A DNA stretch of 63,918 nucleotides, filler included, from Reclinomonas americana ATCC 50394 (lineage: Eukaryota): the NCBI GenBank assembly GCA_048213135.1. It is 12 parts of 12 records of this genome, joined end to end, with 100 filler letters (N's around TTAATTAATTAA, not from the genome) between each part and the next. Parts side by side here need not be neighbours in the genome. Positions count along the whole stretch, not along the records: positions 37,549 to 40,864 come from AFZH01019380.1; 11 more parts are not named here. The stretch is one strand, 5' to 3'. This document shows, in pieces, positions 37,549 through 40,534 of this stretch. The notes below the pieces were generated by a model. The model saw only the letters and a list, made by a program, of their open reading frames with translations. It was not told the origin of the DNA and made no database searches. Each line of letters starts with the position of its first letter. Position 1 is the stretch's first letter. Made by a program: the position numbers and the translations under genes.

Positions 37549-40534
37549 GGCACAGCTGCAACAGGACCAGTCGGGCTCTTCTGCCGGTGAGTACATGTCT
37601 TGTCACCGAAGGTTGTACCTTGCTCACTCTTTTTATGTGTTTGTGGTCGCAGTGCCTGTCGATGCCGTTCAATCGTCCACTGGATCATCTGTTTCGTTGC
37701 CGTCCACCCCAGCCTTCTCTGCCCTACGATCGCTTATCTGGCATGCATCTCCGCAGGCATCCGGTACACCCGTCGCCGCCTCCTCGCACGCTCCGCTCGA
37801 GAATGGTGGCCCCATCGGCCAGGCAGGCGGCCAAGGACAAGCTCTGCCCCAGCCCGAAGCGGTGCAACAGGAGCTCGAGGAACAAAGGCAGCGGGCAAGC
37901 GAGTGGCAGGCGCGTGTGCAGCACTACGAGCATACCGCCGCGGAGCTGCGTCAGGAGGCTGAGGCGGCGAAGCGCGGAAGTGAGGATTGGAGAAAGAGAG
38001 CAAGCGAGTGGCAGGAGCGCGTGCGACAACAGGAGGAATCTGTGCAGCGGGTGCAGCAACAAATGGCGGAATTGCAGCGACAGCTGGACGAGCAGCGAGC
38101 GACGATGAGCGAGTGGGAATGTCGCGTGCAGGCCAACGAGAACGTGATTGCTCAGCACGCTGCCTCTCTCCAGCAGCACGAAATCGCGCGCACTGCGCTG
38201 CAGGAGGCGCTGGATCGTGTGGACGAGCAGCGACAGCGCGAGCGTGACCGAGCTCAGCGACTCGAGGCCGACCTGGCCGCCGTGCAGCGTGATCTCACCC
38301 ACCGAGGTGCGTGAGGCAGCAGGAGGAGGTGAAAGAATGATAATGGGAAGCTCACTTTGTTTGTTTGATGACGATGAATGCAGCGCCATTGACGGCATTC
38401 TCGTGGGAACAAGTGGTGTCGATGAGCAGCAACTTTGCGGAGCGACTGGGCGGCGCCGGCGGACAGGGCAAGGTGTTCTGCGGGCAGTGGGCCGGACAGA
38501 GTGTGGCGATCAAGGTGTTTGACAGCGTGTTGCCGTGGTGCATCGAGTCGTTCTCCAATGAGGTGAGGGTGGGGGATGGTGACGAAGAGAGAAAGAGAAA
38601 ATGTGTGCATCTCACTCTCTTCCTGCTTGCATCGCAGTTGGAGAAGCTGAAGGCGGTGAGTGTGGCTGGAGTTGTGCCACTGATTGGATTTGCGGAGTCG
38701 GACGACGGCAAGCGATGTGTGGTGCTCGAGGCGATGAGGTGAGTGTGAGGGAAACAGAGAGGGAGAGGGGGGATTTGCTGGGCGGGAGCATGCATGTGAT
38801 CTTACGGTGTGCGCTCTCGGCGAGGTAGCGTTGACTTCAATGATTGGTGTGAGTGGAGAGGATAAGCGAACGAGCACGGGAGTGAAGCATTGAGCGGGAG
38901 CCACAGGGAGAGTGGGAGTGAGTGCAGATGGCAACAGATGTTACTGTTAAGAGCAGTGAGTACAACTAGTGGAAGCACAGAGAGAGAGAGAGTGTGTGTT
39001 GTGTGAGAGAGAGAGAGAGAGAGAGAAGTAAAACAGAAAGAAAGATATTGCATTGAGCAACGACCCAGAGTGACTGACACCAACGGAGAGATTGTTTCAG
39101 ACAAACGGAGAGAGAAAGGAGTGCGAGCGAGAGACAGAGAAAAAAGTGAGCAGGTGGAAATGTGATGCAGAGTGACCGATCGAGACAAACGTAGGAGAGT
39201 GAGAGAGAGAGAATGCTCTCTGCTAGTTTATTCTGGACGTGTCTTGTTCTGTCTCTCTGTCTTGATCGATTACCACCCTCATTATTTTTCTCCCGGAAGG
39301 GGGATTGCGTCGATTCATGTGTTCTCACTCTCTCGTAATTCGCAGTGAGCACAACTTGGAGCACCGGCTGCTGCAGTGGGCGGAGCGTGGACTGCCAGCC
39401 ATGTCGATTGAGGCACGAATGACATGCATGCTGCGATGTGCCGAGGCGGTTGTCTCGCTGCACAAGTTGCGTGTCATATGTCTCGTTGTTTGTTGTTTCC
39501 TTGTTCATGCTATCGGACTCACATTGTTCTTGCTGATGATGCAGGCATGTGAGTGCGAGATGTGGCATGTGTGTTTGCTTCATCTTCTCGTTGTTAACTC
39601 ACTTACGTTCTTTTTTGTGCGCGTGTTTGGATGCACAGAATGGTACGCGTGTCTGCTCTCCACTCACTGCTCATTTCGTTCCACTCACTCACTTCCCCTC
39701 TCTCTCTCTCAGTGATCCATCGTGACTTGAAGCCAGCCAACATTCTGTTCAACCACAGTGGAATGGCGTACATCTCGGACCTGGGAGTGGCGCACTGGTT
39801 CCGCACAGAGGGGGTGAGTGACTCTACCCATTGCATATAAGTGCTCCTTTCTTCCCCTCATTCCTTCCTCGTGCCACAGACGCACCTGTCGGTGCACTTT
39901 GCTGGCGACCCGAAGTACGCCGATCCCAAAGCCATGCACGGACAGCTACGACTGAGTTCGGATGTGTTCTCTCTCGGTCTCGTCCTGCTGCAAGTGTTCA
40001 GCGGTCTTCCGATTGAGGAGGTGCATCGACGAGTGGAGGCGTTGGAGGAGATGGACGACATTGATGGCGTCGATGGCGAAGCACTGCTCAAAGCTGCAGT
40101 GGATCTGGCTGATAGTGGTGTCGGTCGACCGTGGCCGGCTCCTGTGTGTGAGCGGATTGTGCGATTGGCACTGAGGTACCTTGTGTGTCTCCAAGAGAGT
40201 GTTGCACGGAGACACGCTAGCGTGACTGAAGCGACCAATCTGCAGATGCCTGGACGGTCGCCCAGCACGTCGTCCGACCGCTCAGCAGCTGGCGAGTGAG
40301 TTGAGTGATCTCACGGTGTTGTCATGCCGGCGAGCGTGCATGGTGTGCGACGGACTGCGCGAGACGCGACTGCGTCCGTGCATGCACCAGGTGTTGTGTC
40401 GGGAGTGCGCGGAGCGACTGGCAAGCAAGAGTGGCGAGTGCCCGGTTTGTCGCGTGCGAGTGGAGGGCGTGGATGCGGGCGAGGGATACGGATTCCACAC
40501 GTATGTGGCTCCGCCGGCGCCGCGAAGGTGTTGA
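37549..40534 (+). CDS. Coiled-coil / IRAK-Pelle-RLK-like protein kinase / C3HC4 RING protein, copy 1
   Basis: Exons 37549-37586, 37757-38306, 38384-38562, 38638-38738, 39346-39465, 39545-39548, 39639-39642, 39713-39813, 39880-40175 and 40246-40534. Motifs FSWEQVVSMSSNFAERLGGAGGQGKVF, VAIK, HRDLKPANIL, DLG, SDVFSLG, RCL..RP and RING CMVC..PCMHQVLCREC..CPVCR. Confidence 0.88.

What the first reader, a model, noticed from the sequence alone, without database searches (positions are those of the whole stretch)
39466..39712. Two consecutive 4-nt microexons build the kinase segment just before HRD
Seen: CACAA|GTTGCGT...TGCAG|GCAT|GTGAGT...CACAG|AATG|GTACGC...CTCAG|TGATCCAT. Splicing both gives CAC AAG CAT AAT GTG ATC CAT CGT GAC = HKHNVIHRD, a canonical LHxxxVIHRD. 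The microexons and their splice sites are kept in all three copies (39545-48/39639-42; 42647-50/42742-45; 45940-43/46033-36) while the flanking introns differ. Skipping one or both shifts the frame before the catalytic loop. Inference: a possible splicing on/off switch for kinase and RING output; gene predictors would miss it.
Basis: partly seen in the sequence, partly recalled or inferred. Interest (0 to 1): 0.75.

Follow-up and report, generated by a model that had tools for sequence, protein, structure and literature searches.

The report
Two 4-base exons in kinase gene
A kinase gene of an intron-rich eukaryote, like most of its dozens of sister genes, carries two back-to-back 4-base pieces between splice signals that are likely always-included exons keeping the enzyme in frame rather than an on/off switch, and the intron before them starts with an unusual signal predicted to be read by a second, altered U1 splicing RNA.

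Summary
Observation confirmed at all six coordinates. The gene encodes TPR, coiled coil, kinase and RING. Of 66 paralogs with both flanking exons, 56 have 4+4-nt pieces, 7 have 10+4, 1 has the first piece fused upstream and 2 have both fused; every model keeps the frame, even where intron interiors align no better than shuffles. Two such pieces arose in 1 of 2000 shuffles of this intron stretch. The single-intron rival fails in sister genes. The on/off switch is unsupported: donors are of ordinary predicted strength, skip-product stops are not conserved, no shared intronic element was seen; no RNA could be tested. Extra: the upstream donor (GTTGCG type) pairs with a variant U1 gene (-15.4 kcal/mol, against -1.5 for the canonical U1), and across the family this donor type follows non-G exon ends (49 of 49) while canonical donors follow G (17 of 17). 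The scan reported both the microexon pair (on paralogs) and the variant U1 before, on other DNA of this genome. Verdict: real, a new variant of known ultra-short coding microexons.

The parts
35957..37420 (+). TPR-encoding stretch, likely the N-terminal exon of copy 1 (separated from the rest by an assembly gap at 37449-37548)
   Evidence: Pfam TPR_12 E 2e-34; TPR, coiled coil, kinase and RING lie in this order in paralog stretches L124, L125, L126 and L129
37653..38306 (+). exon, low-complexity linker and predicted coiled coil
   Evidence: CAG/GT flanks and open frame; coiled coil judged from the Q/E/R-rich sequence, not computed
38384..38562 (+). exon, kinase N-lobe (Gly-rich loop, VAIK lysine)
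   Evidence: weak PDB matches to TKL-group kinases, best E 0.04
38638..38738 (+). exon, kinase N-lobe
39346..39465 (+). exon ending in phase 2, two bases after the His codon that closes helix E
   Evidence: same end in 63 of 66 paralogs
39466..39544 (+). intron 1 (79 nt) with an atypical GTTGCG-type donor complementary to the variant U1
39545..39548 (+). microexon 1, 4 nt, copy 1
39549..39638 (+). intron 2 (90 nt), GTGAGT donor, CAG acceptor
   Evidence: branch-like motif in 58 of 64 paralog introns at this place
39639..39642 (+). microexon 2, 4 nt, copy 1
39643..39712 (+). intron 3 (70 nt), GTACGC donor, pyrimidine tract, CAG acceptor
39713..39813 (+). exon with the catalytic loop (HRD) and a DLG variant of the DFG motif
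   Evidence: Pfam Pkinase E 2.5e-07
39880..40175 (+). exon, kinase C-lobe
   Evidence: Pfam Pkinase E 0.048; ESM Atlas kinase clusters at 0.91
40246..40534 (+). last modelled exon, end of the kinase and C3HC4 RING finger
   Evidence: Pfam zf-C3HC4_3 E 1.5e-10
42647..42650 (+). microexon 1, copy 2 (upstream donor at 42566)
42742..42745 (+). microexon 2, copy 2 (downstream acceptor ends 42811)
45940..45943 (+). microexon 1, copy 3 (upstream donor at 45859)
46033..46036 (+). microexon 2, copy 3 (downstream acceptor ends 46112)

Best explanation
Two 4-base pieces, each between CAG and GT, lie between the helix-E exon and the HRD exon of a TPR/kinase/RING gene and are likely constitutive coding exons, freed by three short complete introns, that supply eight bases needed for an in-frame kinase and RING. 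Shown: the sites, their conservation across the family, the frame arithmetic, and the complementarity of the first donor to a variant U1 gene. Inferred: introns of 56-117 nt are recognised one at a time (intron definition), so exon size hardly matters; introns 2 and 3 are read by the canonical U1 and intron 1 by the variant U1; skipped products carry an early stop with later junctions downstream and would be removed by nonsense-mediated decay as errors rather than serve as a regulated off state.
For: 56 of 66 paralogs 4+4, 7 of 66 10+4, 1 first piece fused, 2 both fused; total always in frame. 4+4 is the parsimony ancestor of the family, with 3 changes (FastTree). Length is kept while sequence varies: 16 different first pieces, 7 different second pieces. 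Within the two large clades the single-base changes (L007, L016, L032, L068) are all synonymous in the predicted frame; L028 changes Met to Trp. Related kinases outside the family with one phase-0 intron here (L094, L095, L097, L100, L101, L102) give the same five residues between the two histidines. All 63 first and 64 second acceptors are CAG or TAG; branch-like motifs in 56 of 63, 58 of 64 and 44 of 64 introns. 16 paralogs have an ordinary donor at exactly the same phase-2 position. A UPF1 gene is present. Plant coding microexons are usually included, and about half are not multiples of three (PMC8831610, section 6).
Against: No transcript was seen. Four internal exons (L082, L083, L090, L092) and three upstream exon ends (L067, L074, L075) were placed by hand because they fail the automatic rule. 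Many loci are near-identical pairs, possibly alleles, so 66 is not 66 independent cases; the tree shows roughly 13 distinct lineages. Both U1 genes score just under Rfam's cut-off (64 and 63.7 against 69.5 bits) and expression of the variant is not shown. L034 has an assembly gap inside intron 2.
Confidence: 0.8

Rival explanations
1. The exons are real but regulated: skipping one or both, or holding back intron 1, is a controlled way to turn off kinase and RING output through a frameshift and decay.
For: Every skip product is out of frame; UPF1 exists; intron 1 has an atypical donor that depends on a different U1 by prediction; plant microexons show more retention of upstream introns (PMC8831610, section 7).
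Against: Microexon donors are of ordinary predicted strength; stop positions in skip products differ (2, 4, 7, 9, 13 or more than 30 codons on); no shared intronic element among 12 representatives; three loci have lost the separate exons; 17 paralogs use an ordinary upstream donor.
Confidence: 0.11
2. One intron only, from the GT five bases further downstream straight to the HRD exon, giving a segment one residue shorter; the 4-base pieces are intron sequence.
For: In the window copies this path is open and in frame; a GT is present at that place in 41 of 66 loci.
Against: Only 3 of 66 loci have GT plus G at +5 there; 10 have neither GT nor GC. It cannot explain two conserved AG-4nt-GT units in unalignable introns, nor L074/L075, where eight extra exon bases precede the same atypical donor and only its first GT is in frame. 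Outgroup kinases have five, not four, residues here.
Confidence: 0.03
3. Both microexons are real, but the upstream exon ends three bases later at a GC donor, adding one leucine.
For: Same phase and open frame; the GC dinucleotide is present in most atypical donors.
Against: Its +5 base is not conserved; paralogs with ordinary donors cut at the first position; the variant U1 pairs over the first GT and three exon bases; outgroup spacing fits the shorter form.
Confidence: 0.04
4. The 4-base pieces are parts of splice signals in a nested or recursive arrangement (stwintron-like), removed in a second step.
For: In the nearest clade, joining the upstream exon to piece 1 would create a GC donor with G at +5 (seen in the sequence). 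Stwintrons exist in fungi (PMC5587772, passages).
Against: Removing the pieces shifts the frame, and across paralogs they vary like codons, most not starting with GT or GC.
Confidence: 0.02

Closest known systems
Ultra-short (1-15 nt) coding microexons of plants and Chlamydomonas (Yu et al. 2022, PMC8831610; passages, sections 6 and 7)
   Same: Internal coding exons of 15 nt or less, often not multiples of three, missed by annotation; the paper shows a validated 4-nt rice exon, two adjacent microexons (5 and 12 nt) in Peptidase M1 genes, and kinase domains as the top microexon-coded motifs in Chlamydomonas.
   Different: Here two consecutive exons of 4 nt each, in an expanded family of at least 66 loci with length changes and fusions, and an atypical upstream donor; no RNA validation here.
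Shifted-register 5' splice sites in human (Roca and Krainer 2009; seen only as described and cited in PMC4856993 and PMC9311317, passages)
   Same: A donor whose consensus is displaced by one base into the intron.
   Different: In human the ordinary U1 pairs one base out of register; here the ordinary U1 is predicted to pair poorly in any register (-1.5 kcal/mol) and a second U1 gene matches.
Co-evolved U1 arm and donor in Entamoeba and Mastigamoeba (Roy and Bowser, bioRxiv 10.1101/2022.06.08.495308; passages)
   Same: A U1 5' arm changed to complement an atypical donor.
   Different: There one changed U1 serves the genome-wide consensus in the normal register; here a changed and a canonical U1 coexist and the register is shifted. 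The preprint mentions both standard and modified U1 candidates in Physarum, unpublished in detail.
TKL-group kinases, Pelle/IRAK and plant receptor-like cytoplasmic kinases, including plant kinase/U-box fusions (resemblance recalled)
   Same: Kinase motifs and the segment before the N-lobe resemble them; weak PDB matches include ACVR1, MLK, FERONIA and LysM receptor kinases.
   Different: TPR, coiled coil, kinase, RING order; no relative found at E 0.001 among longer proteins; family membership not established.

Membership tests
ultra-short internal coding microexons | internal exon of 1-15 nt flanked by AG and GT/GC | tested here: met
ultra-short internal coding microexons | inclusion restores the frame and a conserved protein motif | tested here: met
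   all 66 models in frame; outgroup spacing
ultra-short internal coding microexons | conserved size and phase in homologous genes | tested here: met
   paralogs only: 56 of 66 keep 4+4; no other species available
ultra-short internal coding microexons | junction reads spanning the exon | not testable with these tools
   no RNA run was listed
regulated (switch-like) microexons | condition-dependent inclusion | not testable with these tools
   no RNA data
regulated (switch-like) microexons | weak splice sites or conserved intronic regulatory elements next to the exon | tested here: not met
   donor strength like the next intron; no shared element by 5-mer count in 12 representatives; a coarse test
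stwintron / recursive splice site | internal pieces form splice signals of an outer intron and are absent from the mRNA with the frame kept | tested here: not met
   removal shifts the frame; pieces vary as codons
U1 snRNA (RF00003), variant gene L107/L108 | full-length model match with four stem-loops, 70K and U1A loops, Sm site | tested here: met
   positions 1-166 matched, E 1.5e-14, 64 bits, under the 69.5 cut-off like the canonical copy
U1 snRNA (RF00003), variant gene L107/L108 | expressed, assembled in a snRNP and used for these donors | not testable with these tools
   complementarity and covariation only
Pelle/IRAK/RLK kinase family | groups with these kinases in a phylogeny | not tested
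   only weak exon-level matches

The most novel reading that the evidence does not exclude
This organism runs two U1 snRNPs side by side, and the intron in front of the microexon pair is read only by the variant one. The level of that variant would then gate, or set the order of, splicing through the 4+4 cassette for most of a large TPR/kinase/RING family; and the shifted donor class would give a route for one-base intron sliding, since related kinases carry their intron exactly one base downstream (phase 0) of this one (phase 2). That the variant U1 reads this donor at all I put near 0.7; the probability given is for the whole gating reading.
Probability: 0.15. Interest if true: 0.8.

Novelty: new variant of a known kind. 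Interest (0 to 1): 0.45.

Why it matters
It gives a family-wide natural series (4+4, 10+4, one fused, both fused, single-intron outgroup) for how very small, frame-shifting exons arise, persist and are lost, and it is an annotation trap: a predictor that misses the pair would call dozens of signalling genes pseudogenes or mis-join the approach to the catalytic loop. The same intron toggling between two donor classes in step with the last exon base is a compact, testable case for a second U1 with its own donor code, which would matter more than the microexons themselves.

Tried and rejected
Protein search with the C-lobe exon among longer proteins: 908 candidates, none at E 0.001, so no annotated or transcript-derived protein was available to read the junction from. 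PDB search gave only weak kinase matches. A paper opened under a guessed identifier was unrelated. A search for further U1 variants by a shared stem-loop word found only the three known genes among 11 matches; three U6 genes, identical in the matched part, have the usual ACAGAGA box, so no matching U6 variant was seen (48 of 4277 candidates scored). A crude scan of 200 kb of unselected genome for short exons gave 13 scattered candidates with no peak at 4 nt, too insensitive to estimate microexon frequency. Literature searches listed no report of two consecutive 4-nt exons in a kinase; the library lacks most subscription papers and no supplements were read, and the supplements of PMC8831610 could hold such pairs. 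Rejected: single intron, GC donor, stwintron, and a donor beginning TT one base later (it would need a variable base after the invariant acceptor AG). The organism was not identified and I did not place its lineage.

Full report
Observation. The window is a eukaryotic scaffold of short contigs joined by N spacers. The other four pieces are at the stated places in copies 2 and 3. With both pieces the gene model is open for 581 codons; skipping either or both gives a stop within four codons. The three window copies are too alike to prove anything (introns 74-100% identical).

The gene. Exon pieces match Pfam Pkinase and zf-C3HC4_3 (5 pieces scanned, 3 with hits). A TPR-rich frame (TPR_12, E 2e-34) ends at the assembly gap in front of copy 1, and TPR, coiled coil, kinase and RING follow in that order in paralog stretches without a missing part (L124, L125, L126, L129; 4 of 12 stretches show the whole order, the others show parts). 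The kinase looks TKL-like; a finer family name was not established.

Paralog test. A search of the own genome with the HRD exon gave 97 matches (150 of 274 candidates scored). I examined all 67 with E below 1e-5 and 14 stretches around the 30 weaker ones. One of the 67 (L040) lacks the upstream exon at a contig end and was dropped. In the 66 others a fixed rule (YAG, then the first GTnnG donor within 15 nt, introns of 40 nt or more) found 117 pieces of 4 nt, 6 of 10 nt and 4 of other lengths; four more exons whose donors lack G at +5 or begin GC, and three upstream exon ends, were placed by hand. Result: 56 loci 4+4, 7 loci 10+4 (two codons longer), 1 with the first intron absent, 2 with all eight bases in the upstream exon; all in frame (the L004 row there is an offset slip of my script, the locus has both pieces and a one-base deletion further downstream). 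Shuffles gave two 4-nt candidates in 1 of 2000 trials for this stretch and at most 1.5% for 14 representatives. Intron interiors of 11 distant representatives match copy 1 no better than shuffled sequence, while flanking exons are 62-73% identical. The pieces vary in sequence (16 and 7 variants) but not in length, and four single-base changes within the two big clades are synonymous in the predicted frame. Six outgroup loci have one phase-0 intron and the same five residues between the histidines. On a FastTree tree 4+4 is ancestral with three changes. Many loci come in near-identical pairs that may be alleles; about 13 lineages are the fair count.

The upstream donor. The weak point of the model was the donor GTTGCG, which lacks G at +5. 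Sixteen paralogs have an ordinary donor at the same position, which fixes the cut site. The genome holds a canonical U1 gene (L109) and two identical copies of a variant with a changed 5' arm (L107, L108). The window's donor pairs with the variant over 12 bases (-15.4 kcal/mol) and hardly with the canonical one (-1.5), whereas the two microexon donors prefer or tolerate the canonical U1 (-8.0 and -4.1). I saw this pairing; earlier notes of the scan report the same U1 and donor class elsewhere in this genome and gave me the rule that it follows exons not ending in G. Tested here: 49 of 49 non-G ends have the GTT-type donor and 17 of 17 G ends the ordinary type, with three joint changes on the tree, one of them at a moved donor. 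In 200 kb of unselected genome GTTGCG is over-represented (218 against 170 expected), is followed by T in 119 of 217 and preceded by G in only 19 of 217, in line with a genome-wide class; these are word counts, not mapped introns. Against a strict rule: microexon 1 often ends in T or C before a canonical donor, and L092 has a GTT-type donor after G.

Mechanism. Shown: sites, conservation, frame, complementarity. Inferred: short introns with their own branch-like motif and YAG are defined one by one, so a 4-base exon needs no exon-spanning complex; both pieces are included by default; errors are cleared by decay (UPF1 present). Plant data make removal of the upstream intron last plausible (PMC8831610 section 7), and an atypical donor could enforce that order, but 17 paralogs do without it. 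The switch reading has no positive evidence: donor strength is ordinary, skip-product stops fall at scattered places, no shared intronic element was found, and three loci have made inclusion permanent. It stays open because no RNA could be examined.

Comparison and novelty. Ultra-short non-triplet coding microexons, a validated 4-nt exon, an adjacent 5+12 pair and kinase-coding microexons are in print (PMC8831610). I found no printed case of two consecutive 4-nt exons in four searches, which cover an incomplete library. Shifted donors are known in human and co-evolved U1 arms in Archamoebae; the combination of a coexisting second U1 with a shifted class did not appear in the passages I read, though the preprint mentions standard and modified U1 candidates together in Physarum. 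One-base intron shifts are a recognised process (PMC5587772, passages); that the phase-2 intron here arose so from the outgroup's phase-0 intron is a guess. Within the scan the pair has been reported on at least six other pieces of this genome, and notes describe far longer microexon chains there (not checked by me). Verdict: real, a new variant of a known kind, probably constitutive; interest 0.45, owed largely to the donor and U1 link and to the evolutionary series.

Noticed in passing
L107:1501-1654 (+), L108 same; L109:1501-1673 (-): Two kinds of U1 snRNA gene in the genome: a variant with a changed 5' arm (two identical copies) and a canonical one.
   Followed up: partly
L021, L022, L087-L090, L032, L033, L073, L038, L039: 11 of 65 paralogs lack the HRD arginine or aspartate (HGN 4, HRN 3, HCD 2, HGD 2), suggesting pseudokinase branches that keep the RING and the microexons.
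   Followed up: no
L074, L075 (upstream exon end): Both microexons are missing and eight extra bases sit in the upstream exon; they look like a local duplication of the exon end rather than clean intron loss.
   Followed up: partly
L004 (HRD exon): One-base deletion after the catalytic loop shifts the frame; pseudogene or assembly error.
   Followed up: no
L082 (first internal exon), L102, window about 47510 (minus strand): GC donors occur in several genes, including an AhpC/TSA-like gene (name from the look of the sequence, not tested) downstream of copy 3.
   Followed up: no
L094-L102 against L001-L092: Related kinases carry an intron one base downstream of the family's first intron, a candidate one-base intron shift.
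   Followed up: partly
window 38739-39345, 42128-42445, 45127-45738: The intron before the helix-E exon is much longer than its neighbours, carries GA/GT repeats and differs in length between copies; not searched for hidden exons.
   Followed up: no
window 37449-37548, 40865-40964, 44072-44171: Assembly gaps with an artificial stop-codon spacer hide the TPR-to-linker joins, so the TPR parts of copies 2 and 3 are missing or collapsed.
   Followed up: partly
L100 (intron before the HRD exon): An outgroup kinase intron of about 410 nt holds two AG-short-GT units (5 and 6 nt) that do not give an open frame; probably chance.
   Followed up: no
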